The notes beneath the pieces were generated by a model. It did no database searches. It was not told the DNA's origin and worked only from the letters and a program-made list of their open reading frames with translations. Shown one piece after another: positions 1 to 12,904 of a stretch of 13,122 bases of DNA. The stretch is from a virus (Duplodnaviria; Heunggongvirae; Uroviricota; Caudoviricetes). The DNA lies in the IMG/VR virus record IMGVR_UViG_2526164662_000025, one strand, 5' to 3'. The first letter of the stretch is position 1. Each line of letters starts with the position of its first letter. Both the position numbers and the translations under genes were made by a program.

Positions 1-616
1 CTGCATTTATCCTTCGTGATATCGGACGTTGGCTGGTCATATTCATCCGCGACAGCCGGACCGCTATAACCGCACTCGTCACCGCGATAGGTCCAGGTGC
101 AGGTGTTGGCCAGCATGATACGTCCCGGAAAAACAGCGCCATCCGTTTCCGTCGGCGTGGACAGTACAAAGGAGGCACTCACCGCGCTCAGTTCGCTGCA
201 CTGCTCGATGCGCCAGCGGCTGATCACCTCCTGCTCCGGATCGGCGTCACTGTTTCCGTTGACGAAGTTCACCGCATCCAGAAAACGGGCGTAAACCTTA
301 CGCCGGACCACCGTTCCGCCGACCAGACTCTGCAGATCTTCCGCCATCCCGGTGACCATACCGTACAGGTTAGAAACCGTCAGCGTGGGGCGCGTACTGG
401 TGCCTTTGCCATTCAGTTCAAAACCGCTCCCCTGAATGGGATACGGCTGATACTGTCGCCCCTGCCAGGTGACCGGCTCACCTTTTTCGTTCTGCTCATT
501 ACAGAAAAATAACGTTCACCACCGACCTCTGTCAGATCGATTTCCCAGAGCACCACGCTGGCCGACTGCTCCGCACGGGTGCATTCATTCAGTGTTTCCT
601 GCCGGATATCCTGCAT
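1..616 (-). pseudogene. L: Minor tail protein L (lambda gpL-like), frameshifted and 3'-truncated by the window edge. The N-terminal 37 codons are in the frame starting at 616; the rest of the conserved protein is in a different frame, open from 506 to position 1.
   Basis: ORF 413..616 starts MQDIRQETLNECTRAEQSASVVLWEIDLTEVGGERYF, then runs into unrelated residues and a stop. My manual translation of the adjacent frame from 506 down to 1 gives FCNEQNEKGEPVTWQGRQYQPYPIQGSGFELNGKGTSTRPTLTVSNLYGMVTGMAEDLQSLVGGTVVRRKVYARFLDAVNFVNGNSDADPEQEVISRWRIEQCSELSAVSASFVLSTPTETDGAVFPGRIMLANTCTWTYRGDECGYSGPAVADEYDQPTSDITKDKC with no stop. The frames switch at an A5 run on the plus strand (505..509), which is T5 in the coding sense. 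Confidence 0.8.
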
Positions 617-945
617 CAGTTCACCACCTGTTTAAACTCTGCGCTGAACTCAACACGCAACATACTGACCTGCGACGACCATTTTGCGCAGGTCACCTTT
701 ATCTGCCTGTAACCATAAGGCGGCGTCCACAGAAAGGCCTTCCAGCCCCCGTGCTCAGCCAGAAACGACTCCAGCGCCGTGGCCTCCTCACGGGAGACAG
801 ACAGCGTCACGCTGTACGTTTTCAGGTCAGCGTTCAGCCCGGCATGCACACGCTGGGAATAGCCATCACCAAAGCGCACCTCCCTGACGGAAGGGGCCGA
901 TGTCACATCCATACCGGGTTTCACTTTCCAGCGGAAGGTTTTCAT
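616..945 (-). CDS. M: Minor tail protein M (lambda gpM-like), 109 aa
   Basis: Protein MKTFRWKVKPGMDV...SAEFKQVVN matches lambda gpM in length and sequence as I recall it. Its start overlaps the H stop as ATGA and its stop overlaps the L start as TGATG, typical translational coupling. Confidence 0.9.
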   Translation of the reverse strand: MKTFRWKVKPGMDVTSAPSVREVRFGDGYSQRVHAGLNADLKTYSVTLSVSREEATALESFLAEHGGWKAFLWTPPYGYRQIKVTCAKWSSQVSMLRVEFSAEFKQVVN

Positions 946-3503
946 CGTCCACCTCCGGAGAACAGGCCACCATCACGCATCTGTGTCTGAATTTCATCAC
1001 GGGCACCCTTGCGGGCCATGTCATACACCGCCTTCAGAGCAGCCGGACCTATCTGCCCGTTCGTGCCGTCGTTGTTAATCACCACATGGTTATTCTGCTC
1101 AAACGTCCCGGACGCCTGCGACCGGCTGTCAGCCAGACTGCCCGGTGTACCGACATAACCACCGGTGGCATAGCCGCGCATCAGCCGGTAGAGATTCCCC
1201 ACGCCAATCCGGCTGGTTGCCTCCTTCGTGAAGACAAATTCACCACGGTGAACAATCCCCGCTGGCTCATATTTGCCGCCGGTTCCCGTAAATCCTCCGG
1301 TTGCAAAATGGAATTTCGCCGCAGCGGCCTGAATGGCTGTACCGCCTGACGCGGATGCGCCGCCACCAACAGCCCCGCCAATGGCGCTGCCGATACTCCC
1401 GACAATCCCCACCATTGCCTGCTTAAGCAGAATTTCTGTCATCATGGACAGCACGGAACGGGTGAAGCTGCGCCAGTTCTGCTCACTGCCGGTCAGCATC
1501 GCTGCCATATTCTGTGCAATACCATCAAAGGTCTGCGTGGCTGCACTTTTTACCTGCGACATACTGTCCGTGGCGCTCTCTTCCCACTCACTCCAGCCGG
1601 ACTTCAGGCCTGCCATCCAGCTCCCGCGAAGCTGGTCTTCAGCCGCCCAGGTCTTTTTCTGCTCTGACATGACGTTATTCAGCGCCAGCGGATTATCGCC
1701 ATACTGTTCCTTCAGGCGCTGTTCCGTGGCTTCCCGTTCTGCCTGCCGGTCAGTCAGCCCCCGGCTTTTCGCATCAATGGCGGCCCGTTTTGCCCGTTGC
1801 TGCTGTGCGAATTTATCCGCCTGCTGCGCCAGCGCGTTCAGGCACTCCTGATACGTAACCTTGTCGCCAAGTGCAGCCAGCTGGCGTTTGTACTCCAGCG
1901 TCTCATCTTTATGCGCCAGCAGGGATTTCTCCTGTGCAGACAGCTGGCGACGTTGCGCCGCCTCCTCCAGTACCGCGAACTGACTCTCCGCCTTCCACAA
2001 ATCCCGGCGCTGCTGGCTGATTTTCTCATTTGCTCCGGCATGCTTCTCCAGCGTCCGGAGTTCTGCCTGAAGCGTCAGCAGGGCAGCATGAGCACTGTCT
2101 TCCTGACGATCGCCCGCAGACACCTTCACGCCGGACTGTTTCGGCTTTTTCAGCGTCGCTTCATAATCCTTTTTCGCCGCCGCCATCAGCGTGTTGTAAT
2201 CCGCCTGCAGGATTTTCCCGTCTTTCAGTGCCTTGTTCAGTTCTTCCTGACGGGCGGTATATTTCTCCAGCGGCGTCTGCAGCCGTTCGTAAGCCTTCTG
2301 CGCCTCTTCGGTATATTTCAGCCGTGACGCTTCGGTATCGCTCTGCTGCTGCGCATTTTTGTCCTGTTGAGTCTGCTGCTCAGCCTTCTTTCGGGCGGCT
2401 TCAAGCGCAAGACGGGCCTTTTCACGATCATCCCAGTAACGCGCCCGCGCTTCATCGTTAACAAAATAATCATCCTTGCGCAGATTCCAGATGTCGTCTG
2501 CTTTCTTAAACGCAGCCTCTGCCTTAATCAGCATCTCCTGCGCGGTATCAGGACGACCAATATCCAGCACCGCATCCCACATGGATTTGAATGCCCGTGC
2601 AGTCCTGTCTGCCCAGGTCTCCAGCGTGCCCATGTTCTCTTTCAGGCGGCGGGTCTGCTCATCAAAGCCTTTCGTGGCGATATCGTTCGCCGCCTGTAAG
2701 GCCCCGGCCTCATCACCGGAACGCTGCAGCTGCGCAACATACGCAATCTGCTCTGCCGTCACGTTACGGAACTGGCGCGCCATCGCAATCAGCCCCGACG
2801 TAGGGTCGGTGGTCAGTTTTCCGAAAGCCTCTGCAACCTTGTCCACCTCCACACCGGATGCAGAAGCAAAACGCGCGACACTCTGGTTGATGGCATCAAA
2901 CTGTTCACCACCACGCACACCGGCATTCACCAGGGCTGCCAGTGACTCACTCGCCTGGTTAAACGTCAGCCCTGCGGCCTGTCCGGCTCTGGAGAGCGTC
3001 AACATGCGATCGGCAGTCAGTCCGGACTGATTACCGGAAAGAACCAGGGTTTTATTAAACGCTGAAAGCGTGGAATCTCCCTGGTACCAGGCGTACGCCA
3101 GCGCACCTGTCGCCACCGCCAGCGAGGTGACCCCGACCATCGGCAGGGTGATCGCACCGGCAAGCCCCCTGAGCATGGGGATCATCCCGCCGAAGGAGTC
3201 CTTCACCTGACCGCCCTGTTGCAGCAGGATCAGCCAGGGATTCTGACCACCGGCAAGCTGCGTGGCGATATCCGTAAACTGTGCGGGCAGGGTGCGCATG
3301 GCCGCTTTATACTGTCCGACGGAAATCCCGGCTTTTTGCGCAGCCAGCGCCTGACGGCTCAGGCCCTGTTCAACAGCAGTGGCGGTTTTTCTGGCGTCAG
3401 TATCCAGTCCTGAAAAATGACGCCTTACCCGGCTCATCTGCTCATCGAAACGGACCGCATCCAGACTCAGGTCAATAATAAGATCACCAACCGGCTGGGA
3501 CAT
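942..3503 (-). CDS. H: Tail tape measure protein (lambda gpH-like), 853 aa
   Basis: 853-aa ORF, the length I recall for lambda gpH. It has the N-terminal MSQPVGDLIIDLSLDAVRFDEQ motif, a long charged coiled-coil-like central region (AEQQTQQDKNAQQQSDTEASRLKYTEEAQKAYERL...) and a Gly-rich C-terminal segment. It lies between G-T and M. Confidence 0.95.
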   Translation of the reverse strand: MSQPVGDLIIDLSLDAVRFDEQMSRVRRHFSGLDTDARKTATAVEQGLSRQALAAQKAGISVGQYKAAMRTLPAQFTDIATQLAGGQNPWLILLQQGGQVKDSFGGMIPMLRGLAGAITLPMVGVTSLAVATGALAYAWYQGDSTLSAFNKTLVLSGNQSGLTADRMLTLSRAGQAAGLTFNQASESLAALVNAGVRGGEQFDAINQSVARFASASGVEVDKVAEAFGKLTTDPTSGLIAMARQFRNVTAEQIAYVAQLQRSGDEAGALQAANDIATKGFDEQTRRLKENMGTLETWADRTARAFKSMWDAVLDIGRPDTAQEMLIKAEAAFKKADDIWNLRKDDYFVNDEARARYWDDREKARLALEAARKKAEQQTQQDKNAQQQSDTEASRLKYTEEAQKAYERLQTPLEKYTARQEELNKALKDGKILQADYNTLMAAAKKDYEATLKKPKQSGVKVSAGDRQEDSAHAALLTLQAELRTLEKHAGANEKISQQRRDLWKAESQFAVLEEAAQRRQLSAQEKSLLAHKDETLEYKRQLAALGDKVTYQECLNALAQQADKFAQQQRAKRAAIDAKSRGLTDRQAEREATEQRLKEQYGDNPLALNNVMSEQKKTWAAEDQLRGSWMAGLKSGWSEWEESATDSMSQVKSAATQTFDGIAQNMAAMLTGSEQNWRSFTRSVLSMMTEILLKQAMVGIVGSIGSAIGGAVGGGASASGGTAIQAAAAKFHFATGGFTGTGGKYEPAGIVHRGEFVFTKEATSRIGVGNLYRLMRGYATGGYVGTPGSLADSRSQASGTFEQNNHVVINNDGTNGQIGPAALKAVYDMARKGARDEIQTQMRDGGLFSGGGR

Positions 3504-3948
3504 ATCTCACACCTCCTGGAATCCCCGCTGAAGCCATCATTAATGCGGCATCATCCACCATGACATCCGCCACATCCGCAGACGATAAAATATCGCCCCC
3601 TCCGTCCCCACCGAACCGGACGCCTCCGGCAAGTCCTGCCGCTTTCTGCATCAGCATTTTGTCCTCATCCGGCCTCTCCACCTGCTCTTCCTCATGCCGG
3701 GGGACAAGCAGACTGAAATCAGAGGGATGCATATCCGGATCGCAAAAAAACAGGCTGAGTACAGCGTACATCAGCCCGGAAAAATGCATATCCAGTTGGG
3801 TATCCTGAAAATAATGCGTGCGGTAAAAATGTCGCCAGTCGGCATATTCGGTGGATGTCATCCCGGCAAGCATGGCGCGCCAGTCAGGCCTCCCCATCTC
3901 TCGCGCCAGTCTGAGGGCAAAATTCAGCTCGCCGTCGAAGACTTTCCC
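3484..3948 (-). CDS. T: T segment of the G-T tail assembly chaperone fusion, reached by -1 programmed ribosomal frameshifting from G. The full G-T product spans 3484..4355.
   Basis: The -1 frame relative to G is open from the slippery site to a stop at 3484 and encodes ...VFDGELNFALRLAREMGRPDWRAMLAGMTSTEYADWRHFYRTHYFQDTQLDMHFSGLMYAVLSLFFCDPDMHPSDF... (ORF 3484..3897 in the track is its M-initiated part). This is the arrangement known for lambda G and G-T. Confidence 0.8.
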   Translation of the reverse strand, partial: GKVFDGELNFALRLAREMGRPDWRAMLAGMTSTEYADWRHFYRTHYFQDTQLDMHFSGLMYAVLSLFFCDPDMHPSDFSLLVPRHEEEQVERPDEDKMLMQKAAGLAGGVRFGGDGGGDILSSADVADVMVDDAALMMASAGIPGGVRYVPAGW

Positions 3949-4355
3949 GCAGAAAAATCATCATCAGTAAGCGCGTTATTTTTCGCCACTTCGGTGATAT
4001 CCGTATCCACATGAACAGCCCCGCTCATCCCGGACAGACGCAACACCACGTCTTCCGCCCGGGCAATGGCATCAGCAGGCCAGGTGGTGAGCACCTCCTG
4101 TTCGATCTGCATCACAGCCTCATTCATTGATGGTGACTCCGTTTTCTGTGGATGGTTATGCCACAGGGACATCGCCACCAGAAACGCGCCGGTTCTGACA
4201 AGGTCTTCCACGCTCACCTGCAGGTTACCGCTGGCTTCAGCCTGTTCTGCCCGTCGTTTCAGCAGGGCAAGATGCTCGATACGCTGCAGCGCAGACAGCT
4301 CGGAAAGCGTGACGGACACACCGTTATATTCAAATTGTTCGGTTTTCAGAAACAT
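3924..4355 (-). CDS. G: Tail assembly chaperone G (lambda gpG-like), 143 aa
   Basis: Protein MFLKTEQFEYNGVSVTLSELSALQRIEHLALLKRRAEQ... matches lambda gpG. An AGGAGG-like RBS (aaacGGAGGtaatATG on the minus strand) precedes the start, and the gene sits directly downstream of V. Confidence 0.9.
   Translation of the reverse strand: MFLKTEQFEYNGVSVTLSELSALQRIEHLALLKRRAEQAEASGNLQVSVEDLVRTGAFLVAMSLWHNHPQKTESPSMNEAVMQIEQEVLTTWPADAIARAEDVVLRLSGMSGAVHVDTDITEVAKNNALTDDDFSAGKSSTAS
3942..3948 (-). promoter_or_regulatory. -1 programmed frameshift slippery heptamer G GGA AAG, the G to G-T shift site
   Basis: Plus strand reads CTTTCCC at 3942..3948, so the minus strand reads GCG GGA AAG TCT in the G frame, 9 codons before the G stop. 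This is the same heptamer and position as the known lambda G/G-T frameshift site. Confidence 0.8.
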
Positions 4356-4368
4356 GTATTACCTCCGT

Positions 4369-5121
4369 TTACCCTGCAGCGCCCGCTTCAGTAACGGTGA
4401 CTTCAGCTACCGTGGCAAACTGACCATTACCGGAAATCACGGGGATACTCACTTTTCCAGCCTTAACCCCCGTCACAGTGATCGCCATATCTTTCACAGC
4501 AATGGTTCCCGTTGACGGATCGGCGGAAACCGCTCTGAACGTTTTGTCGGTTGCACTTTCCGGCTCAAAAGAAACCGTCAGGGTTGTTGTTTTCCCTTTT
4601 GCCACCGTACCAGATGTCGGCGTCACCTTAATCGCAGTGACCGGCGTAATTTCGCTGCGTTCTTCCGCCACAGAAGGTTTACCCACGTTGGTCACTTTCA
4701 CCGTACGGGTGATCACTTCCTTCGCCGTTACGGCCTTACCGATACTGCTGACCCAGCCACGGAACACATCCACCGTGCCGTTCGGGAAACGGATTTTATA
4801 GGCCCGCACATCCCCGCTTTCAAACCAGCCTATAAGCCCTTTCTGACCTTCTTCTCCCGGTTTCCAGGCCAGCGTAAAACTGGTATCTCCTGCAGACTTC
4901 TGCCCCTGCCCGGTCGCAGTCCAGTCCGCGTCTTCATCATCCAGGTAGTTATCATCGTAGGGTTCTGCCGTCATCTCGCCCGGCGTCAGATCCTTTACCT
5001 GTGCCAGTCGCTGCCAGTTATCGTCTGACAACGGGTTTGCATAGGCATCACCCTGACCGTTATAAACCCACAGGGTGGTACCGGCACCTTTTACCGGTGC
5101 CAGAGGATTTGGTGTTGGCAT
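4369..5121 (-). CDS. V: Major tail tube protein V (lambda gpV-like), 250 aa
   Basis: Protein [57 protein letters not shown]...[41 protein letters not shown]... closely matches lambda gpV, including the C-terminal Ig-like region ([28 protein letters not shown]). Confidence 0.95.
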
Positions 5122-5128
5122 ATCGTCC

Positions 5129-6467
<1,339 letters not shown>

Positions 6468-6470
6468 GCC
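6468..6470. repeat. Right copy of the 3-bp target site duplication (GCC)
   Basis: Identical to 5207..5209. On the minus strand it encodes Gly106 of U, the codon at which the IS is inserted. Confidence 0.75.
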
Positions 6471-6785
6471 CTGCGTAACCATCGTGGTAATCAGGCCTGA
6501 CAGTGCCGGGATCGCACTCATCGCCGGATAAATCCGGCTTTCCATCCACGAATCCAGCTCTGAATCCGGCACCTGAGCAGGCAGGAAAACTTCAATATGC
6601 AGCTCCGCCTGCCAGGTATCGCTGTCCAGCGCTTCGCCCGTGTATTCAGCGCCGGTGAGATAAACAGCAATTGCCGGAAAATCCGCCTCATCAAAAACAG
6701 CGGGGCGACCATCAAACAGCGTCGCCCCGTGTTCATGCTGCTCGAGTGCATCCAGCACTGCAGCACGGATATCAGTATGTTTCAT
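6468..6785 (-). pseudogene. U: 5' fragment of tail terminator gene U (codons 1-106), disrupted by the IS insertion. As it stands it would give a 118-aa chimera ending in 12 IS-encoded residues.
   Basis: MKHTDIRAAVLDALEQHEHGATLFDGRPAVFDEADFPAIAVYLTGAEYTGEALDSDTWQAELHIEVFLPAQVPDSELDSWMESRIYPAMSAIPALSGLITTMVTQG matches lambda gpU. After Gly106 the reading frame enters the IS right end ([12 protein letters not shown], stop at 6429). Confidence 0.9.
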
Positions 6786-7357
6786 CGCTTTATCACAATC
6801 CTTAGTTGTTGTTTCAACGCATAGCCCAGTTCTTTTGGCAGACGTTCTCGCCGGATACGGTTAACGTTCTCATCAAAAGCCTGCTTCAGTGGGGCCGCCA
6901 TCGGAATTTTAACCACCTGAATGGGAAGACGATTACGCTTTTTCCTTCCTTTATCGTCATTGCCCTTCGCATACCGGGCTTCTGGCAAACGTTGCATAAC
7001 ATGCCAGCGCCCATTATTTAATCGCTGGATGAATGCCCGCTGATAACGATGCTGACCGGCTTTAAGTATGCTGTTCGGACGATGACCAAGCATCCTGATC
7101 CCCAGCTTAATAGCAGGGAGATCACCGCGGTTAACGATAATTCTGGCATTCGGATTTCTGACCGTCGCCCGTTTCAGTCTGGACCGTTCCTTTACCAGTT
7201 TCCGGCTCACCCTGGTCTCCCGGGCAACCTGTGATGAAGACTGATTAATCGCCGTTGTAGCCACGCGGTTAATAGCCATTGCTGAAGCCGACGGAATGGC
7301 GTTTTTACGAACCCGGCTCAGATTTTCAATCGCCTGATCAAGCCCTTTTATCGCCAT
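6782..7357 (-). CDS. Z: Tail completion protein Z (lambda gpZ-like), 191 aa
   Basis: MAIKGLDQAIENLSRVRKNAIPSASAMAINRVATTAINQSSSQVARETRVSRKLVKERSRLKRAT...RIRRERLPKELGYALKQQLRIVIKR matches lambda gpZ. Its stop overlaps the U start as ATGA. Confidence 0.9.
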   Translation of the reverse strand: MAIKGLDQAIENLSRVRKNAIPSASAMAINRVATTAINQSSSQVARETRVSRKLVKERSRLKRATVRNPNARIIVNRGDLPAIKLGIRMLGHRPNSILKAGQHRYQRAFIQRLNNGRWHVMQRLPEARYAKGNDDKGRKKRNRLPIQVVKIPMAAPLKQAFDENVNRIRRERLPKELGYALKQQLRIVIKR

Positions 7358-7371
7358 AATTCACCCTGCGT

Positions 7372-7725
7372 TTATCGTCGCCGGTTAACTGCGGGTGGTT
7401 GCCCACGGTTCAGCCAGAGATAACAACTGCCCCCGTCATCCGGAGAAACACGATCCACCCAGAACGTCTCACCATTAATGGTCAACGTGTCACCACGCCG
7501 CACGGCACGAACCGTATCCGTCCGCACAAATAATGACGGGCTGCTTCCTTCAATACGGATCCCACTACTGGCAAACCCCAGCGACTCCGGATCGTCAAAA
7601 ACCCCCTGAACTTCGCCGCCACGCTGTGCACCGGAGGTGAACTGCGCACTGATGCCCATCACTTCAACAATCGTACTGTCCACCCCGGCAAGGGCGGCAT
7701 CAAAGGCATTCTGAAAATCACGCAT
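7372..7725 (-). CDS. FII: Head-tail joining protein FII (lambda gpFII-like), about 117 aa
   Basis: MRDFQNAFDAALAGVDSTIVEVMGISAQFTSGAQRGGEVQGVFDDPESLGFASSGIRIEGSSPSLFVRTDTVRAVRRGDTLTINGETFWVDRVSPDDGGSCYLWLNRGQPPAVNRRR matches lambda gpFII. I chose the ATG at 7725 because it gives the lambda-like N-terminus; the track's upstream start at 7761 would overlap FI by 44 nt. Confidence 0.85.
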   Translation of the reverse strand: MRDFQNAFDAALAGVDSTIVEVMGISAQFTSGAQRGGEVQGVFDDPESLGFASSGIRIEGSSPSLFVRTDTVRAVRRGDTLTINGETFWVDRVSPDDGGSCYLWLNRGQPPAVNRRR

Positions 7726-8092
7726 AAACAGCCATTCCACCATCAACGTGTGTTTTTGCATCTGAGGACATAATCAGAATCACCCGACCAACATCCGCAA
7801 GCTCAACGGATTCCCCCGTTTCACCATCAACGCCACAGAGATGGAGGCAGGTCAGAACTCTGATGCGCGTTAACGCGCCGGATGTTTCCTCACGAACATC
7901 ATGAGCCGCGTTTTCCCTCTCCCGGATATCCATATTCATAACCTGTACATCATCGCCGGATGACTGCATTTCCTCTTCCCATTCTGCCACCCGCTGCGCT
8001 ATCTCTGCGGCACTCCCGGATATATCCGGCTCACGCCCCAGAATCAGGGCCAGTTCATCAAGCCGTTTCAGATTTTGCTCTTTCGTTGCCAT
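7718..8092 (-). CDS. FI: DNA packaging / head assembly protein FI (lambda gpFI-like), about 124 aa
   Basis: Sits between E and FII as in lambda and is acidic with a flexible-looking central region. The start at 8092 (MATKEQNLKRLDELALILG...) has a strong RBS (cacAGGGGGAtgatATG); the track's upstream start at 8140 has none and would overlap the terminator-like hairpin. Sequence similarity to lambda FI is weaker than for neighbouring genes. Confidence 0.75.
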   Translation of the reverse strand: MATKEQNLKRLDELALILGREPDISGSAAEIAQRVAEWEEEMQSSGDDVQVMNMDIRERENAAHDVREETSGALTRIRVLTCLHLCGVDGETGESVELADVGRVILIMSSDAKTHVDGGMAVYA

Positions 8093-8106
8093 ATCATCCC
8101 CCTGTG

Positions 8107-8135
8107 AAAAAAGACACGGGGGCATTTCGCCCCCG
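8107..8135 (-). terminator. Intrinsic-terminator-like hairpin plus U-tract between E and FI (possible attenuator)
   Basis: Minus-strand RNA after the E stop would read CGGGGGC-GAAAU-GCCCCCG (7-bp all-GC stem) then UGUC UUUUUU, followed immediately by the FI Shine-Dalgarno. Confidence 0.4.
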
Positions 8136-8143
8136 CTCACGGA

Positions 8144-9172
8144 TTATTTCACCTGTACCACCACAAACTCATCCGGGTCCGGCAACACCATCAGCGGCGC
8201 GGACTGCGTCATGGTAAATTCACGGGCGGGATCCCCTACCGTCAGCCAGTGTTTCGGATAACGGGAAGAGGCCACCACACCTTCGGACAACGCCTGCGCA
8301 TCCTGAATGGCACCATAGCAACGAATGCCCTCTGCTGCCGTATTCCCCAGGACCAGCGAGCCCTCAGGCAGATAACGTTTTTCGGTACCGTCCTCTGCCA
8401 CATAAGACGTTTTTGCCACCACAATGGCCAGATCGCCGTAATACCCTTTGAAGGACACCACCGCGCCCAGGTCTTTCACCGCTGTTTCGAGTTGCGAATT
8501 AGAGCCGCGACGGGTATCCAGTTTTTCGCGGAACAATTTAAAGCCATTCAGCAGACGCCAGACGGTACCGTCCATAATGGCAATATTCACAAGACCGCTG
8601 GCCTGGTCGCAGTAGAGGTCAAGATCATGTGTAGGATCGAACGTGTCACGATCCTGTTTTGACCACTCCTTACCACTACCCTGAGTGATGTTATTCTTCG
8701 TCGACCTGCCAAAATCGACCTCAATTTTCTCGAACTGGTCTCCTTCCATCGTGTATTTGCCATACAGCACGGCATTCACCGCCTGCATTTCTTCCACCCG
8801 GACAATGGCGTGCTCTTCCTGTTTGAGGTTATCAGTGATGATACGCAGACGACGGTAGGCCGGGTCGTTCAGCTGAGCCGGATCTTCACCGGGAAGACGC
8901 TCAACCGCCTGCTGGTAATTAAATTCGTGTTTCGGCTTGACGTAGCCCGGACGTAACACGCGGGTTTCACCACCACGATGACGCAGCACTTTTCCTTCAA
9001 CAACCGGGGAAACATAGGCCGCCACCGGCGTTTTTCCGGTAATTTTGTCCAGCATCACCTCTTCGGTATGGAAATTCACCGTACGGCGGAAAAACAGCTC
9101 CAGAAACAGCGCACGAAATTTCACTTTTTGTTCGGTATAACCGAGTAACTGGCGGGTCGTAAACAATCCCAT
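8144..9172 (-). CDS. E: Major capsid protein E (lambda gpE-like), 342 aa
   Basis: MGLFTTRQLLGYTEQKVKFRALFLELFFRR...PGYVKPKHEFNYQ...VEEMQAVNAVLYGKYTMEGD...KLDTRRGSNSQLETAVKDLG...DPAREFTMTQSAPLMVLPDPDEFVVVQVK aligns along its whole length with lambda gpE (341 aa). RBS gAAAGGAActgatttATG. Confidence 0.95.
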   Translation of the reverse strand: MGLFTTRQLLGYTEQKVKFRALFLELFFRRTVNFHTEEVMLDKITGKTPVAAYVSPVVEGKVLRHRGGETRVLRPGYVKPKHEFNYQQAVERLPGEDPAQLNDPAYRRLRIITDNLKQEEHAIVRVEEMQAVNAVLYGKYTMEGDQFEKIEVDFGRSTKNNITQGSGKEWSKQDRDTFDPTHDLDLYCDQASGLVNIAIMDGTVWRLLNGFKLFREKLDTRRGSNSQLETAVKDLGAVVSFKGYYGDLAIVVAKTSYVAEDGTEKRYLPEGSLVLGNTAAEGIRCYGAIQDAQALSEGVVASSRYPKHWLTVGDPAREFTMTQSAPLMVLPDPDEFVVVQVK

Positions 9173-9229: not shown

Positions 9230-9577
9230 TTACGGCAGCGCCGCGTGACTCAGGGCACTGCCGGCAAAGGCGTTGGCCTTTTTGTGTTCATCCACACTTT
9301 CAGGCCAGCGGATTGCCTCCGTCGCAAAGGTCCCCGACTTGTAATAGGTCAGCGCCGTCTCTGTGCCTTCAAGCGGCAGTACCAGTATGCCAACCGCACT
9401 ACCGGCTTTCTGTCCGTCCCAGACCACCAGTTTCCCGGTGGCCTCATCCAGCATCAGGGGCGTCAGTGCCGGTGTTGCCGAGGAAATCCCGCTGCTGCCT
9501 GTGGCGGTATGAGCCGGATCATTACCGGCAAAAATACGTACTTCCGCACGCTGTTCAGTGATAGTTTTCGTCACCAT
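9230..9577 (-). CDS. D: Head decoration protein D (lambda gpD-like), 115 aa
   Basis: Shares motifs with lambda gpD (DPAHTAT, TPLMLD, WDG, AVGIL, YKSGTF, AFAG) and has similar length and position. Strong RBS (caacAGGAGGtttttacaatATG). Confidence 0.9.
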   Translation of the reverse strand: MVTKTITEQRAEVRIFAGNDPAHTATGSSGISSATPALTPLMLDEATGKLVVWDGQKAGSAVGILVLPLEGTETALTYYKSGTFATEAIRWPESVDEHKKANAFAGSALSHAALP

Positions 9578-9613: not shown

Positions 9614-10216
9614 TCATGGCATGGCCATGAGCATTTTCACGTCCGCATCACCGTCTGCTGACGTCTGTGGCACGCCACCCTGTACCGCTGCCGGTGAATG
9701 GTTCGCCATGATGCGTTCAAACATGGCGGTTGTGGATGCAGAGACCGGTTCTGCCTTACCTGATCCCGCAGCCAGCACAGCCCGGGCGCTCTCCACAGTC
9801 ATTCCCGGGCAGGCAGCCAGCTGTTCAGCCTGCGCCTCAGCCCCTTTTGCCTCATCCAGTGCCATGATCTGATCACGGAGTGAGGGTCCGGCATCCGCCT
9901 GCGGTGAAGCAGCCAGGATCGGGCGGGCTTTTTCCACCGTCATCTCCGGCATCGCCGCCAGCGTTGCCGCCAGTTGTTCACGACCTTTCGCTTCTTCACA
10001 CGCCATAATGCGATCGGCTTCACTCTGCGCGGATGCCACCGGCTGCTGTGGTGCCGCCGCGGCCAGAATCGCCCGGGCCTGTTCAACGCTCATGCCCTGT
10101 TGTCCTGCCAGCATCGTGGCAAGCTGTTCACGTCCTTTCGCTTCCTGGCATGTCAGGATCCCCATCACTCGCTGGTTCTCCTGCGCGGCGGCTTCCGTTG
10201 CAGTTAATTGCGGCAT
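9614..10216 (-). CDS. Nu3: Candidate nested in-frame scaffold protein (Nu3-like), translated from an internal start within C, about 201 aa
   Basis: Internal ATG (Met302 of C, at 10214..10216) is preceded by a strong SD: minus strand reads gtcAGAGGAGGcactATG. In lambda, Nu3 is known to be made from an in-frame internal start within C. Sequence-context evidence only. Confidence 0.5.
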   Translation of the reverse strand: MPQLTATEAAAQENQRVMGILTCQEAKGREQLATMLAGQQGMSVEQARAILAAAAPQQPVASAQSEADRIMACEEAKGREQLAATLAAMPEMTVEKARPILAASPQADAGPSLRDQIMALDEAKGAEAQAEQLAACPGMTVESARAVLAAGSGKAEPVSASTTAMFERIMANHSPAAVQGGVPQTSADGDADVKMLMAMP

Positions 10217-11119
10217 AGTGCCTCCTCTGACATTACTGTTCAGCGCCGTGGCCATCACACTGATGGCATCCGACGCATTGATTAATTCATCCGCCAGCCC
10301 GGCCTCAATGCCGGACTGACCTTCAAAAACGGCGGCCTCTGTTCCCGTGACGGCATCAACAGACAGACCGGTATACATCGCTACTTTTTCAGCAAACATC
10401 CGGCGCGCCGCATCAATGCGCTGTTGCATGTCCTGGCGAACCTCTGCCGGCAACGCTTCAAACTGATTGCCATCCACCTTGTGCGCCCCTGAGTAAATCA
10501 GCGTGATATCAACACCGGCCTGCGCCAGATGACCGGCATAGCTGACATGGCTCATCATCACGCCAATGGAGCCGATACGGGATGTCTGGGTAACCAGCCG
10601 TCGGGAGCAGGCCGACGCCAGCAGCATGGCTGCAGAGCAGGCCGTGTCATTGCACAGTGCCCAGACCGGCTTCTGCTGACGGAGGCGGTAAATCATGTCA
10701 GCGCAGTCAAACGCGCCGGCGGCCTGCCCGCCCGGACTGTCAATGTCCAGCAGTACGCCCCGCACCTGGCTATCCGCCATTGCCTGCTGAAGACAGGCGA
10801 CAATGCCGTCATAGCCTGTCATTCCGGAAAATGGCCGCATACCCCCCAGCCGGTGCACCAGCGTGCCGGTCACCGGCAGTACAGCAATACCGTTCACCAC
10901 CCGGTAAACACGGGCCGGTCGTTTACCTCCGGCCATGTACTCGTCCGTTTCAGCCAGCATTCCGGGAGCATCAAACTGTACCTGCTGTTGTGGTACCGAA
11001 AGACTTGATGCCCCCATCTCGCGCCCGAGCGCGCAAAAGAAAACCCGCGCATAGGCGGGCTCCAGAAGCAGCGGTTCATTGAATGCTGCGGCAATAATGT
11101 GTGAAAGATTACGTCTCAC
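9614..11119 (-). CDS. C: Head maturation protease / scaffold protein C (lambda gpC-like, S49 SppA/ClpP-type peptidase domain plus C-terminal repeat-rich scaffold region), 501 aa
   Basis: N-terminal region (AAFNEPLLLEPAYARVFFCAL, GIAVLPVTGTL, KPVWALCND, SRRLVTQTSRIGSIGVMMSH, ITLIYSGAHKVDGN) matches lambda gpC. It lies between portal and D and overlaps the B stop. The C-terminal third contains tandem repeats. Confidence 0.9.
   Translation of the reverse strand: MRRNLSHIIAAAFNEPLLLEPAYARVFFCALGREMGASSLSVPQQQVQFDAPGMLAETDEYMAGGKRPARVYRVVNGIAVLPVTGTLVHRLGGMRPFSGMTGYDGIVACLQQAMADSQVRGVLLDIDSPGGQAAGAFDCADMIYRLRQQKPVWALCNDTACSAAMLLASACSRRLVTQTSRIGSIGVMMSHVSYAGHLAQAGVDITLIYSGAHKVDGNQFEALPAEVRQDMQQRIDAARRMFAEKVAMYTGLSVDAVTGTEAAVFEGQSGIEAGLADELINASDAISVMATALNSNVRGGTMPQLTATEAAAQENQRVMGILTCQEAKGREQLATMLAGQQGMSVEQARAILAAAAPQQPVASAQSEADRIMACEEAKGREQLAATLAAMPEMTVEKARPILAASPQADAGPSLRDQIMALDEAKGAEAQAEQLAACPGMTVESARAVLAAGSGKAEPVSASTTAMFERIMANHSPAAVQGGVPQTSADGDADVKMLMAMP
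9758..10180 (-). repeat. Three tandem, diverged ~45-aa (~140-150 bp) coding repeats in the C/Nu3 C-terminal region
   Basis: Protein repeats ENQRVMGILTCQEAKGREQLATMLAGQQGMSVEQARAILAAAAPQ / EADRIMACEEAKGREQLAATLAAMPEMTVEKARPILAASPQ / LRDQIMALDEAKGAEAQAEQLAACPGMTVESARAVLAAGSG, followed by a degenerate fourth (FERIMANHSPAAVQ). Confidence 0.65.
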
Positions 11120-12701
11120 GTGGTGTTGTCTCCTCTTCCGGCCTGCGACTCTCCGCTATCTGCTGCTCATACGCCTGCGCTATCCACACCGGACGTGAGA
11201 GTCCGGCTTTTTGTCGCTCAGCAGATTCCCTGACCTGCTGGCGGAAAATGTCCTGATAATCCTCGCCCATCAGCGCCAGCTCTTTCTCATACGTGCTCAG
11301 TCCGGCCTCAATGCGCATCACCGATTCCTGAACCTCCTTGAGCCCGTCAATGGCCATTCTTCCGGCTCCTATCCACTCTGCCCGTGACCAGGCTGATCGC
11401 GCCTGATAAAAATCAAAACGTGCCCGTGGCGGACGAATAATCCCCCGAAGAAGTGCCTCTTCCAGCCAGCAGGAAAACATCTGCGTGGCCAGCCGGGCCG
11501 CAATAAATTTTCGCCGCCCCATAAAATAGCGCCACGACTCATTGGCGGAGGCGCGGGCACTTGAGTAACTGACCTTCGAGTAATCACGGGACAACTGTTC
11601 GTAGGAAACGCCAAGACCGGCGGCGATATACCGCAGCAACGCCTGTTCAAGCGCAGAAAATCCATTGTCTGAATCCTGCGCAGTCTGTAGTTTCAGATCA
11701 TCACCAGGGAAAAGGTGCGGAATTTTGACACCGCCCAGTGTCACGTTATTCGTGTCATACCAGCTGGAGAACTTCTCCAGAATATTAATAAGCGGATTAT
11801 CTTTCTGCTCCTGTGGCGCGCCGGCGATATATTCAAAGGCCTTTTCGGTATCAAGTTCACTTTCAATCGTCGCTGCATACATGGCTTTCACAATGGCCGA
11901 CTGAAGCTGTGTTGCCTGCAGGGAATCCAGCATCTTCAGCCGTTCCATGACGCTGTAAAACTGATTAGCCCCACGGGTCTGCCCGTCCTCCACCGGCTCG
12001 AAAATATGCAGCATGGCCGGACGCCCGGTGGGTAGTTCACGCGGGATCCGTTCCCATCGTCCACTACCAGAGAACGGAAAATCATCCTCACAGATATGGT
12101 ACGCAACGGCACGGCCATATCGATCGACCTCCACCCCGGCCCGCAGAAAACGGTTCCCCATACCGTGTCCTGGCGTGTCCACCCGTTTCGGACTCACGGC
12201 TTTAAAACGCGTACGAAACAGTTGCGTGCTCTCCGTATCCCAGACCGGCTGCACAAAGATTTCGCCGTTAAACGCATGAACGCCCACACCTTCACGGATA
12301 AATTCCGTAAACGTGCGTTTCCCTTCCACGTCGATCTCGCCAGACATCCCTTCGGCGTATTCCGACCAGGCCGCCTCCACCTCATCGACAAAACTTTTTG
12401 CTGCAGTCTCCCGCATCCCCAGCCAGCGCCAGTTCGGACGGTAGCTGATCAGAAACATATGCCCGACAATATGATCCTTATGCAGTGCCACCGCATTGGC
12501 CGCTATCCCGTTATTGCGCACCAGATCATCTGCACGGGCATTGCCCAGACGCAACGCGGGCAACAGGGCCGCATCGGCACTCTGCGCCGGTGGCAACCAC
12601 TCCGCCATTTGCCCGCCAAATCCTGCACCGCCCCCGTTGTAGCTGAGGCTCTCCCGAAGCGGAACACCGTTCACATCAATCAGGACAGGCGTTCGTTTCA
12701 T
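11109..12701 (-). CDS. B: Portal protein B (lambda gpB-like), 530 aa
   Basis: Matches lambda gpB along its length as I recall it (for example GNARADDLVRNNG, FEPVEDGQTRGAN, LQSAIVKAMYAATIESELDT, LLRYIAAGLGVSYEQLSR, WIGAGRMAIDGLKEVQE). Its start overlaps the W stop as ATGA. Confidence 0.95.
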   Translation of the reverse strand: MKRTPVLIDVNGVPLRESLSYNGGGAGFGGQMAEWLPPAQSADAALLPALRLGNARADDLVRNNGIAANAVALHKDHIVGHMFLISYRPNWRWLGMRETAAKSFVDEVEAAWSEYAEGMSGEIDVEGKRTFTEFIREGVGVHAFNGEIFVQPVWDTESTQLFRTRFKAVSPKRVDTPGHGMGNRFLRAGVEVDRYGRAVAYHICEDDFPFSGSGRWERIPRELPTGRPAMLHIFEPVEDGQTRGANQFYSVMERLKMLDSLQATQLQSAIVKAMYAATIESELDTEKAFEYIAGAPQEQKDNPLINILEKFSSWYDTNNVTLGGVKIPHLFPGDDLKLQTAQDSDNGFSALEQALLRYIAAGLGVSYEQLSRDYSKVSYSSARASANESWRYFMGRRKFIAARLATQMFSCWLEEALLRGIIRPPRARFDFYQARSAWSRAEWIGAGRMAIDGLKEVQESVMRIEAGLSTYEKELALMGEDYQDIFRQQVRESAERQKAGLSRPVWIAQAYEQQIAESRRPEEETTPRET

Positions 12702-12904
12702 AACCTCACTCCCAGCGGACGACGGCGGCGGCTTGTTGTCCCCAGCACTGACTCCGCATCATTGATCGCCCGGTTAAGATCATCCAGAGAGGCCACCGTA
12801 TATTCAATTCTTCGTCCATCTTTCTGGACAGACACCACCCGTTTACCGGTTAATAAATCAAGGCGCGCCTGACGCAGCGCCTGCAGTTCAGCGACTGTAA
12901 CCAT
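12698..12904 (-). CDS. W: Head-tail joining / head completion protein W (lambda gpW-like), 68 aa
   Basis: 68 aa, between terminase and portal. Recalled similarity to lambda gpW (LTGKRVVSVQKDGRRIEYT motif). Confidence 0.9.
   Translation of the reverse strand: MVTVAELQALRQARLDLLTGKRVVSVQKDGRRIEYTVASLDDLNRAINDAESVLGTTSRRRRPLGVRL

What the first reader, a model, noticed from the sequence alone, without database searches (positions are those of the whole stretch)
3484..4355. Conserved G/G-T -1 programmed frameshift (slippery heptamer GGGAAAG at 3942..3948)
The heptamer sits 9 codons before the G stop, and the -1 frame continues for about 150 codons to 3484 with a T-like sequence. This confirms the tail assembly chaperone pair and explains why the T segment lacks its own start and RBS. 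Annotation pipelines often mis-call T as a short independent ORF (ORF 3484..3897 in the track).
Basis: partly seen in the sequence, partly recalled or inferred. Interest (0 to 1): 0.35.

Follow-up and report, generated by a model that had tools for sequence, protein, structure and literature searches.

The report
Lambda-type G/GT tail chaperone frameshift site
This is the textbook phage-lambda G/G-T programmed -1 ribosomal frameshift site, intact in a lambda-like E. coli prophage; it is real and correctly interpreted, but ordinary and long known.

Summary
GGGAAAG lies at 3948..3942 on the minus strand, in register G_GGA_AAG with the 143-codon gene G (4355..3924). The -1 frame is closed by three tandem TGA codons until 9 nt upstream of the heptamer. 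It then runs 152 sense codons to the TGA at 3486..3484.

G matches the lambda gpG models and the -1 segment matches the lambda T models. The pair sits between the major tail gene V and the tape-measure gene H. Lambda has the identical heptamer and flanks.

95 of 97 evaluable close relatives keep GGGAAAG in register. 75 of 80 divergent relatives carry G_GAA_AAG at the same spot.

T-frame homology and third-codon-position variation begin right after the slip site. The ATG that annotation pipelines use (3897) has no Shine-Dalgarno sequence and is Phe in 41 of 45 family sequences.

One small error: AAG is followed by 5 sense codons before the stop, so the GGA codon is 7 codons before it, not 9.

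This is a member of the lambda G/GT system described in 1993, so it is not novel.

In this copy the neighbouring tail gene U is split by an IS3-family element, so the prophage is probably defective.

A stable RNA structure 7 nt downstream of the heptamer is limited to one clade and unproven.

The parts
3924..4355 (-). Gene G, tail assembly chaperone gpG (143 aa); zero-frame product
   Evidence: ORF and translation. PF06894 3.2e-50. TIGR01674 equivalog 9e-49. 69% aa identity to lambda G.
4362..4366 (-). Shine-Dalgarno GGAGG of gene G
   Evidence: Sequence. Anti-SD duplex -10.8 kcal/mol.
3942..3948 (-). Slippery heptamer G_GGA_AAG, in register with G (GGA = codon 137, AAG = codon 138)
   Evidence: Identical in lambda. 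In register in 95 of 97 evaluable relatives. The only in-frame X_XXA_AAG in 3347 codon positions.
3958..3966 (-). Three tandem TGA codons in the T (-1) frame; the T frame opens at 3957, 9 nt upstream of the heptamer
3924..3926 (-). G stop codon TGA, 5 sense codons after AAG; 3' limit of the 31-nt productive overlap
3484..3942 (-). T segment read in the -1 frame (152 aa + TGA). The predicted fusion gpGT is G residues 1-138 plus these 152 residues, 290 aa in all
   Evidence: Translation without stops. PF06223 6.3e-14. TIGR01715 8.3e-63, matching from T residue 5. Family alignment from the slip site. Third-position variability 1.38 against 0.82 and 0.65 bits in codons 2-15.
3895..3897 (-). Internal Met codon (T residue 16) that PGAP uses as the T start; not a real start
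   Evidence: PGAP annotation. Anti-SD duplex only -1.5 kcal/mol. Phe in 41 of 45 family sequences.
3863..3934 (-). Candidate RNA structure starting 7 nt 3' of the heptamer (outer 8-bp helix enclosing the UGGCGCG/CGCGCCA hairpin); clade-limited and unproven
   Evidence: z -2.15 in the window, -4.42 lambda, -3.67 N15, -3.37 phi80. Only rank 21 of 221 in an unbiased scan of the window. Not kept across 45 family sequences, about 62% of cells paired.
4369..5121 (-). Gene V, major tail tube protein (upstream neighbour; the T domain's partner in lambda)
   Evidence: PF16461 2.2e-68 and Big_2.
942..3503 (-). Gene H, tape measure protein (downstream neighbour; start overlaps the end of T by 20 nt; SD AGGAGG at 3517..3512 lies inside T codons)
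   Evidence: PF06791 7e-69 and PF09718. Anti-SD duplex -11.6 kcal/mol. Sequence.

Best explanation
This is the G/G-T programmed -1 ribosomal frameshift cassette of a lambda-like E. coli prophage.

Shown by sequence:
- Ribosomes start at the G ATG (4355), which has a strong SD.
- Zero-frame reading gives the 143-aa chaperone gpG, ending at TGA 3926..3924.
- The heptamer G_GGA_AAG lies in the 31-nt G/T overlap, in register with G.

Inferred from lambda:
- At the heptamer, a few percent of ribosomes slip back one base. The peptidyl-tRNA-Gly re-pairs from GGA to GGG, and the aminoacyl-tRNA-Lys (mnm5s2UUU) re-pairs from AAG to AAA.
- Decoding resumes at GUC and continues for 152 codons.
- The product is a 290-aa gpGT fusion with the junction ...SAGK-VFDGELNF...
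- The G parts of both proteins coat the tape-measure protein H. The T domain recruits the tail-tube protein V. The fixed, low GT:G ratio of about 1:30 is set by the slip efficiency.

T has no initiation signals of its own. The 137-aa 'T' CDS in automated annotation is a truncation artefact.
For: - Register and frames.
- Productive overlap of only 31 nt, bounded by three TGA codons in the T frame and by the G stop.
- Family membership of both halves and the V-G-T-H order.
- DNA is 86% identical to lambda G-T, with the slip site and flanks identical while the preceding 80 nt are diverged.
- GGGAAAG kept in register with the same 5-codon tail in 95 of 97 evaluable loci; the two exceptions are degraded copies.
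- An A_AAG slip motif at the homologous position in distant relatives: A_AAA_AAG in VT1-Sakai; G_GAA_AAG in N15, phi80, mEp043, Flotzy, Tritos, PSTCR8lys and 75 of 80 IMG/VR loci. The N15 record annotates it as the slippery sequence.
- T-frame conservation from the first codon after the slip site, and codon-position periodicity upstream of Met16.
- No SD at ATG 3897.
- The only in-frame X_XXA_AAG among 3347 codon positions.
- Literature: lambda uses GGGAAAG for G/GT with about 96% zero-frame reading (PMC3296357). The 30:1 ratio and the roles of the G and T parts are in PMC5009743, which also states that G_GGA_AAG is highly shift-prone in E. coli. tRNA-Lys thiolation tunes the shift (PMC7618472).
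Against: - There are no protein or ribosome-profiling data for this locus, so the frameshift is inferred by homology.
- The raw heptamer count in the window is not significant on its own.
- In this copy the tail terminator gene U, two genes upstream, is split by a 1258-bp IS3-family element. The prophage probably cannot build tails, and the site may be a still-intact relic rather than a feature under current selection.
- No 3' stimulator is supported across the family.
Confidence: 0.93

Rival explanations
1. T is an independent gene, translated from its own ATG at 3897 as a 137-aa protein, as PGAP annotates it. The heptamer is then incidental.
For: An ATG-initiated ORF 3897..3484 exists. It is the annotated form in RefSeq records of near-identical prophages.
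Against: - The anti-SD duplex is -1.5 kcal/mol, weaker than all ten real starts in the operon and typical of internal ATGs.
- The Met is Phe in 41 of 45 family sequences.
- The TIGR01715 homology and the family alignment extend 11 to 15 residues upstream of it, to the slip site.
- Codon-position periodicity in the T frame holds upstream of it.
- In lambda, T is made only as the G-T fusion (PMC5009743, citing Levin et al. 1993).
Confidence: 0.03
2. The cassette is an inert relic. It is intact in sequence, but the prophage is defective (U split by an IS), so no functional G/GT frameshifting takes place or matters in this host.
For: - An IS3-family element at 5210..6467 with a 3-bp target duplication interrupts U.
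- A 99.6%-identical prophage in another strain is annotated with the same IS insertion and also an internal stop in Z.
Against: - G, T, H, V, M and the head genes are all intact ORFs with strong family matches.
- G-T here is 99.9% identical to copies in prophages with an uninterrupted U, for example E2348/69.
- This rival concerns present use, not what the element is. It is compatible with the main explanation of mechanism.
Confidence: 0.5
3. The fusion arises by transcriptional slippage of RNA polymerase at the A run, not by ribosomal slippage.
For: None specific. A/T runs can cause RNA polymerase slippage (general knowledge; reviewed in PMC5009743).
Against: - The run is only three A residues (GGGAAAG). 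Productive transcriptional slippage usually needs about 7 or more identical bases (established knowledge).
- The conserved feature across relatives is the codon register X_XXA_AAG, including G_GAA_AAG, which is what tRNA re-pairing predicts.
- In lambda the G:GT ratio responds to tRNA-Lys U34 thiolation (PMC3296357).
Confidence: 0.01

Closest known systems
Bacteriophage lambda genes G and T (gpG / gpGT -1 programmed frameshift; Levin, Hendrix & Casjens 1993; Xu, Hendrix & Duda 2004, 2013, 2014)
   Same: - Same heptamer G_GGA_AAG in the same register, with the same 5 codons to the G stop.
- Same V-G-T-H order.
- 86% DNA identity over G-T.
- TIGR equivalog matches for both halves.
- The T end overlaps the H start.
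   Different: - G residues about 111-134, just upstream of the slip site, are replaced by an unrelated and 3-residue-longer sequence.
- T is 8 residues longer (152 against 144). It has a 4-residue insertion at HEEEQVERPDEDK and a different C-terminal tail (...VPAGW).
- The T/H overlap is 20 nt, against 8 nt in lambda.
- The host prophage has an IS in U.
N15 gp14/gp15 and phi80-type G/T pairs (same Pfam families)
   Same: Same gene order, same position of the slip site at the 3' end of G, and an A-site AAG to AAA slip. The N15 record explicitly annotates the slippery sequence.
   Different: They use G_GAA_AAG, where the P-site tRNA-Glu re-pairs imperfectly. T is shorter (113-115 aa) and lacks the duplicated C-terminal motif.
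IS3-family (IS911-like) orfA/orfAB -1 frameshift, and E. coli dnaX gamma/tau
   Same: Same class of bacterial -1 PRF on an X_XXA_AAG heptamer decoded by the single E. coli tRNA-Lys. A copy (A_AAA_AAG at 5542..5548, plus strand) sits in this very window.
   Different: From established knowledge, those sites use A_AAA_AAG with well-defined stimulators (an upstream SD-like element and a downstream hairpin) and shift at high efficiency. The products are a transposase or a truncated polymerase subunit, not a chaperone pair.

Membership tests
Lambda-type G/GT tail assembly chaperone frameshift cassette | Two overlapping ORFs located between the major tail (tube) gene and the tape-measure gene | tested here: met
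   V (PF16461) at 4369..5121, G at 3924..4355, T frame at 3484..3942, H (PF06791 and PF09718) at 942..3503.
Lambda-type G/GT tail assembly chaperone frameshift cassette | The upstream ORF is a gpG homologue | tested here: met
   PF06894 at 169.6 bits (cut-off 27). TIGR01674 equivalog at 164.9 bits (cut-off 74.45).
Lambda-type G/GT tail assembly chaperone frameshift cassette | The downstream ORF is a T homologue lying in the -1 frame relative to G and overlapping its 3' end | tested here: met
   PF06223 at 52.6 bits (cut-off 25.9). TIGR01715 at 209.6 bits (cut-off 77.35). -1 frame with a 31-nt overlap.
Lambda-type G/GT tail assembly chaperone frameshift cassette | A slippery heptamer X_XXY_YYZ in the G frame within the overlap, conserved among relatives | tested here: met
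   G_GGA_AAG at 3948..3942. Kept in 95 of 97 close relatives. A_AAG-type motifs at the same site in distant relatives.
Lambda-type G/GT tail assembly chaperone frameshift cassette | T has no independent translation start | tested here: met
   No SD at the only candidate ATG. That Met is not conserved, and coding-type conservation continues upstream of it. This is inferred from sequence, not from protein data.
Lambda-type G/GT tail assembly chaperone frameshift cassette | A gpGT fusion protein is made at a few percent of gpG and is required for tail assembly | not testable with these tools
   Needs a western blot, mass spectrometry and genetics. Known for lambda only (PMC3296357, PMC5009743).
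Lambda-type G/GT tail assembly chaperone frameshift cassette | G binds the tape-measure protein; the T domain binds the major tail protein; neither is in the virion | not testable with these tools
   Biochemical property reported for lambda (PMC5009743, citing Xu et al. 2014). No solved structure is detectable by sequence.
-1 PRF signals with a 3' RNA stimulator (dnaX / IS911 type) | A conserved stable hairpin or pseudoknot 5-9 nt downstream of the heptamer | tested here: inconclusive
   A 72-nt structure starts 7 nt downstream in the lambda, N15 and phi80 clade, with z from -2.2 to -4.4. In the window it ranks only 21 of 221. It is not maintained in 45 family sequences. The 8-sequence covariation signal did not survive the larger set.

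The most novel reading that the evidence does not exclude
In the lambda, N15 and phi80 clade, including this window, the roughly 72-nt stable RNA structure that begins 7 nt 3' of the heptamer (3934..3863) acts as a clade-specific tuner of the gpG:gpGT ratio. As far as I recall, and as far as the papers I could read show, lambda G-T is described as working from the heptamer without a defined structural stimulator. Such an element would therefore add a regulatory layer to a textbook site.
Probability: 0.12. Interest if true: 0.3.

Novelty: already known. Interest (0 to 1): 0.06.

Why it matters
The practical value lies in annotation. In the two near-identical RefSeq prophage records I opened (E2348/69 and OkiPb01717), T is a free-standing 137-aa CDS. 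In all 15 top hits listed it is named as a separate protein. Matches to this G-T stretch occur in 3498 of 5426 complete E. coli genomes. In the 10 phage records fetched and inspected (lambda's own RefSeq record included), none encodes G-T as a join, and only N15 flags the slip site. The correct product is a 290-aa gpGT fusion, so protein databases hold an N-terminally truncated T and lack the fusion. Biologically it adds nothing new. It is one more intact copy of the lambda G/GT frameshift, here inside a prophage that an IS insertion has probably crippled.

Tried and rejected
- **Family-wide 3' stimulatory structure.** RNAalifold on 8 sequences suggested two helices with apparent covariation. 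With 45 unique sequences, pairing fell to about 62%. The outer helix ranked 104th of 3159 alternative 7-bp helices by fraction of cells paired, and alifold predicted essentially nothing. Rejected as a family feature and kept only as a clade-limited candidate.
- **Upstream SD-like stimulator.** None is visible in the 20 nt before the heptamer.
- **Solved structures.** The PDB sequence search with the 290-aa fusion gave no relevant hit.
- **The search for homologous proteins with G.** It listed only relatives of 75% identity or more. The odd-length hits P0003 and P0075 are chimeric products, not natural in-frame G-T fusions.
- **Genome-contig scan.** It returned mostly lambda itself as contamination of unrelated assemblies, so it added no diversity.
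- **Literature.** Levin 1993 and Xu 2013 are not held. I could not verify what was measured about downstream sequence effects in lambda.
- **Raw heptamer frequency as a significance test.** Uninformative; replaced by the in-frame count.
- **Failed or wasted calls.** Two scripts failed on file paths or time limits.
Full report
**What the window is.** All large ORFs on the minus strand form a lambda-type late operon:

| Gene | Coordinates |
|---|---|
| gpW | 12698..12904 |
| portal | 11109..12701 |
| S49 protease | 9614..11119 |
| D | 9230..9577 |
| major capsid E | 8144..9172 |
| FI, FII | 7718..8140, 7372..7761 |
| Z | 6782..7357 |
| U | N-terminal part from 6785 |
| V | 4369..5121 |
| G | 3924..4355 |
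| T frame | 3484..3942 |
| tape measure H | 942..3503 |
| M | 616..945 |

Megablast places the window at 99.6% identity in E. coli chromosomes. Matches to the G-T stretch occur in 3498 of 5426 complete E. coli genomes.

**Checking the observation.**
- On the minus strand the sequence reads ...GAT GAT TTT TCT GCG GGA AAG TCT TCG ACG GCG AGC TGA.
- GGGAAAG occupies 3948..3942 and is the only copy in the window.
- Counted from the G ATG at 4355, the register is G_GGA_AAG, with Gly137 and Lys138 of a 143-aa protein.
- The -1 frame contains TGA TGA TGA at 3966..3958 and opens at 3957. The G stop is at 3926..3924. Only 31 nt exist in which a -1 shift can yield a long product, and the heptamer lies inside them.
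- From the final G of the heptamer (3942), the -1 frame runs 152 sense codons to TGA 3486..3484 without a stop.
Five sense codons follow AAG, so the GGA codon is the seventh before the stop.

**Is it more than chance?**
- The bare heptamer count is not significant: 2.0 are expected, and 173 of 200 shuffles have at least one.
- In register it is rare. Among 3347 codon positions of 12 intact genes there are 6 in-frame X_XXY_YYZ heptamers and a single X_XXA_AAG, which is this one.
- By inference from that rate, the chance that an in-frame heptamer of any kind falls in a given window of about 10 codons is below 2%.

**What the two halves are.**
- G matches PF06894 (3e-50) and the NCBIfam equivalog phage_lambda_G (9e-49).
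- The -1 segment matches PF06223 (6e-14) and the equivalog phage_lam_T (8e-63). The latter match starts at residue 5 of the segment.
- Aligned with lambda G-T (NC_001416 9711..10549), the DNA is 86% identical. The block TTTCTGCGGGAAAGT is identical, although the 80 nt before it are largely unrelated.

**Comparative evidence.**
- Of 97 evaluable related loci from IMG/VR and GTDB genomes, 95 keep GGGAAAG in register with the same 5-codon tail.
- The two exceptions are a copy with a 1-nt deletion in the T run just upstream and a pseudogenised Shigella copy.
- More distant members keep a slip motif at the homologous position: A_AAA_AAG in VT1-Sakai, and G_GAA_AAG in N15, phi80, mEp043, Flotzy, Tritos and Providencia phage PSTCR8lys.
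- In N15 the depositors annotated exactly these bases as the slippery sequence.
- Among 80 divergent IMG/VR loci, 75 have G_GAA_AAG at the homologous position. Four others (L119, L120, L123, L173) read GCA_AAA_TAG and one (L124) reads GAA_AAA_TAG there. That is an A_AAA tetramer directly before the stop, which looks like a P-site slip variant.

**T has no start of its own.**
- The T-frame protein alignment is conserved from the first codon after the slip site: [AV][FL]..E[LM].F.[LM].LARE[FM]GRPDWR.
- In the 14 codons between the slip site and the ATG at 3897, variability is highest at T-frame third positions: 1.38 bits, against 0.82 and 0.65 at positions 1 and 2.
- That ATG codes Met16 of the T part, and the residue is Phe in 41 of 45 unique family sequences.
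- Its upstream region pairs with the anti-SD at only -1.5 kcal/mol. Ten genuine starts in the operon give -3.9 to -11.6 (G -10.8, H -11.6), and 74% of internal in-frame ATGs do at least as well.
- RefSeq/PGAP nevertheless annotates T as a 137-aa CDS from this ATG in near-identical prophages. In the same record it does annotate the programmed frameshift of the neighbouring IS3 transposase.
- Lambda's own RefSeq record lists T as a separate CDS starting at the slip site, with no join.
- Other phage records (VT1-Sakai, phi80, mEp043, Flotzy, Tritos, PSTCR8lys) start T still further downstream.

**Mechanism.**
- Shown here: the register, the two frames, the homology and the conservation.
- Taken from the literature on lambda: GGGAAAG is the G/GT slippery sequence, with about 96% zero-frame reading (PMC3296357).
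- The G:GT ratio of about 30:1 is critical. The G parts bind the tape-measure protein, the T domain binds the major tail protein, and neither protein is in the virion (PMC5009743).
- G_GGA_AAG is highly shift-prone in E. coli (PMC5009743).
- Hypomodified tRNA-Lys (mnm5s2UUU) shifts more on G_GGA_AAG (PMC7618472, PMC3296357).
- Inferred for this locus: tandem slippage of tRNA-Gly (GGA to GGG) and tRNA-Lys (AAG to AAA), giving a 290-aa fusion with the junction SAGK|VFDGELNF.

**Is there a 3' stimulator?**
- Eight diverse sequences gave an RNAalifold structure whose outer helix starts 8 nt after the heptamer, with apparent covariation: score 0.232 against 0.111 in shuffles, 0 of 500 as high.
- The 72-nt segment is unusually stable in lambda (z -4.42), N15 (-3.67), phi80 (-3.37) and VT1 (-2.72), and less so in the window (-2.15). 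It is not stable in Tritos (0.06) or PSTCR8lys (-1.40).
- In an unbiased 72-nt scan the segment ranks 2 of 205 in lambda but only 21 of 221 in the window.
- With 45 unique family sequences, pairing falls to about 62% and alifold predicts nothing.
- Among close relatives, stem substitutions are few and mostly G-U compatible. That cannot be separated from amino-acid constraint.
- Conclusion: this is a clade-limited candidate and is not established.

**State of this copy.**
- A 1258-bp IS3-family element (5210..6467, plus strand) splits the tail terminator gene U. It has terminal inverted repeats starting TGTAGTGG and a 3-bp GCC target duplication.
- The prophage is therefore probably unable to make tails.
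- G-T itself is 99.9% identical to copies in prophages with an intact U.

**Verdict.** The feature is a member of the long-known lambda G/GT frameshift system. Its interest is low and lies mainly in annotation quality.

Noticed in passing
window 5210..6467 (+); slip site 5542..5548: A 1258-bp IS3-family (IS911-like) insertion sequence splits tail terminator gene U. It has inverted repeats starting TGTAGTGG and a 3-bp target duplication GCC (5207-5209 and 6468-6470). It carries its own -1 frameshift heptamer A_AAA_AAG, in register with orfA (5246..5593), leading into orfB (frame open from 5410 to 6459). The window therefore holds two X_XXA_AAG frameshift sites on opposite strands. PGAP annotates only the IS one.
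   Followed up: yes
window 5278..5400 (+): Full-length Rfam match to isrC, an Hfq-binding sRNA (RF01387; 150 bits, gathering score 39). It lies entirely inside the IS orfA coding region, so the Rfam family appears to overlap an IS3-family transposase gene.
   Followed up: no
window 3778..3743 (-): An intrinsic-terminator-like element inside the T coding segment. It is a 12-bp G+C-rich hairpin with one bulge (3778..3751), followed by G and a U7 tract (3749..3743). z is -4.45 with 0 of 200 shuffles as stable, and it is the strongest local structure in a scan of V-G-T-H (z -6.9). The same hairpin is predicted in lambda and VT1-Sakai (same fold, -16.4 kcal/mol), but not in N15, phi80, mEp043, Tritos or PSTCR8lys. 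The simple terminator scan missed it because of the bulge.
   Followed up: partly
window 3484..3650 (-); L001 1490..1647: Lambda-type T proteins (window, lambda) end with two copies of the C-terminal motif: LMQKAAGLAGGVRFG, then LMMASAGIPGGVRY. N15- and phi80-type T proteins stop after the first copy. In lambda this is a 47-nt direct repeat, 70% identical, 111 nt apart. The second copy carries the AGGAGG Shine-Dalgarno of H, read as Gly-Gly in T. This suggests an old duplication of the T-end/H-start junction.
   Followed up: partly
L086-L093, L095 (genome contigs): Contigs in assemblies labelled Neobacillus, Oceanobacillus, Pseudomonas, Kitasatospora, Shewanella, Chromatium, Leeuwenhoekiella and a Chromatiales MAG carry a G-T region with 0 mismatches to phage lambda over 839 nt. 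Where the record title gives coverage it is low, about 1x to 10x. This is almost certainly lambda control-DNA contamination of those assemblies.
   Followed up: yes
L119, L120, L123, L124, L173 (IMG/VR): A minority of divergent G-T relatives lack an A_AAG motif at the homologous position and read GCA_AAA_TAG or GAA_AAA_TAG at the end of G. That is an A_AAA tetramer directly followed by the G stop, which looks like a P-site-only slip aided by the stop codon. L121 and L122 read GCA_AAA_TAG there too, but also carry a GGAAAAG 12 nt upstream. In PSTCR8lys-type loci the G stop directly follows G_GAA_AAG.
   Followed up: partly
window 3949..3957 (-): Just upstream of the heptamer, the zero-frame codons TTT TCT follow a T, giving T_TTT, and the T frame is already open there. 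A low-level -1 slip of tRNA-Phe would also be productive. The motif is absent in lambda (GTT TCT), so it is probably irrelevant.
   Followed up: no
L003 8766..9341 compared with window 6782..7357: In the 99.6%-identical prophage of strain OkiPb01717, gene Z is annotated as a pseudogene with an internal stop. In this window Z is an intact 191-aa ORF. Decay of the IS-disrupted prophage therefore differs between strains.
   Followed up: no
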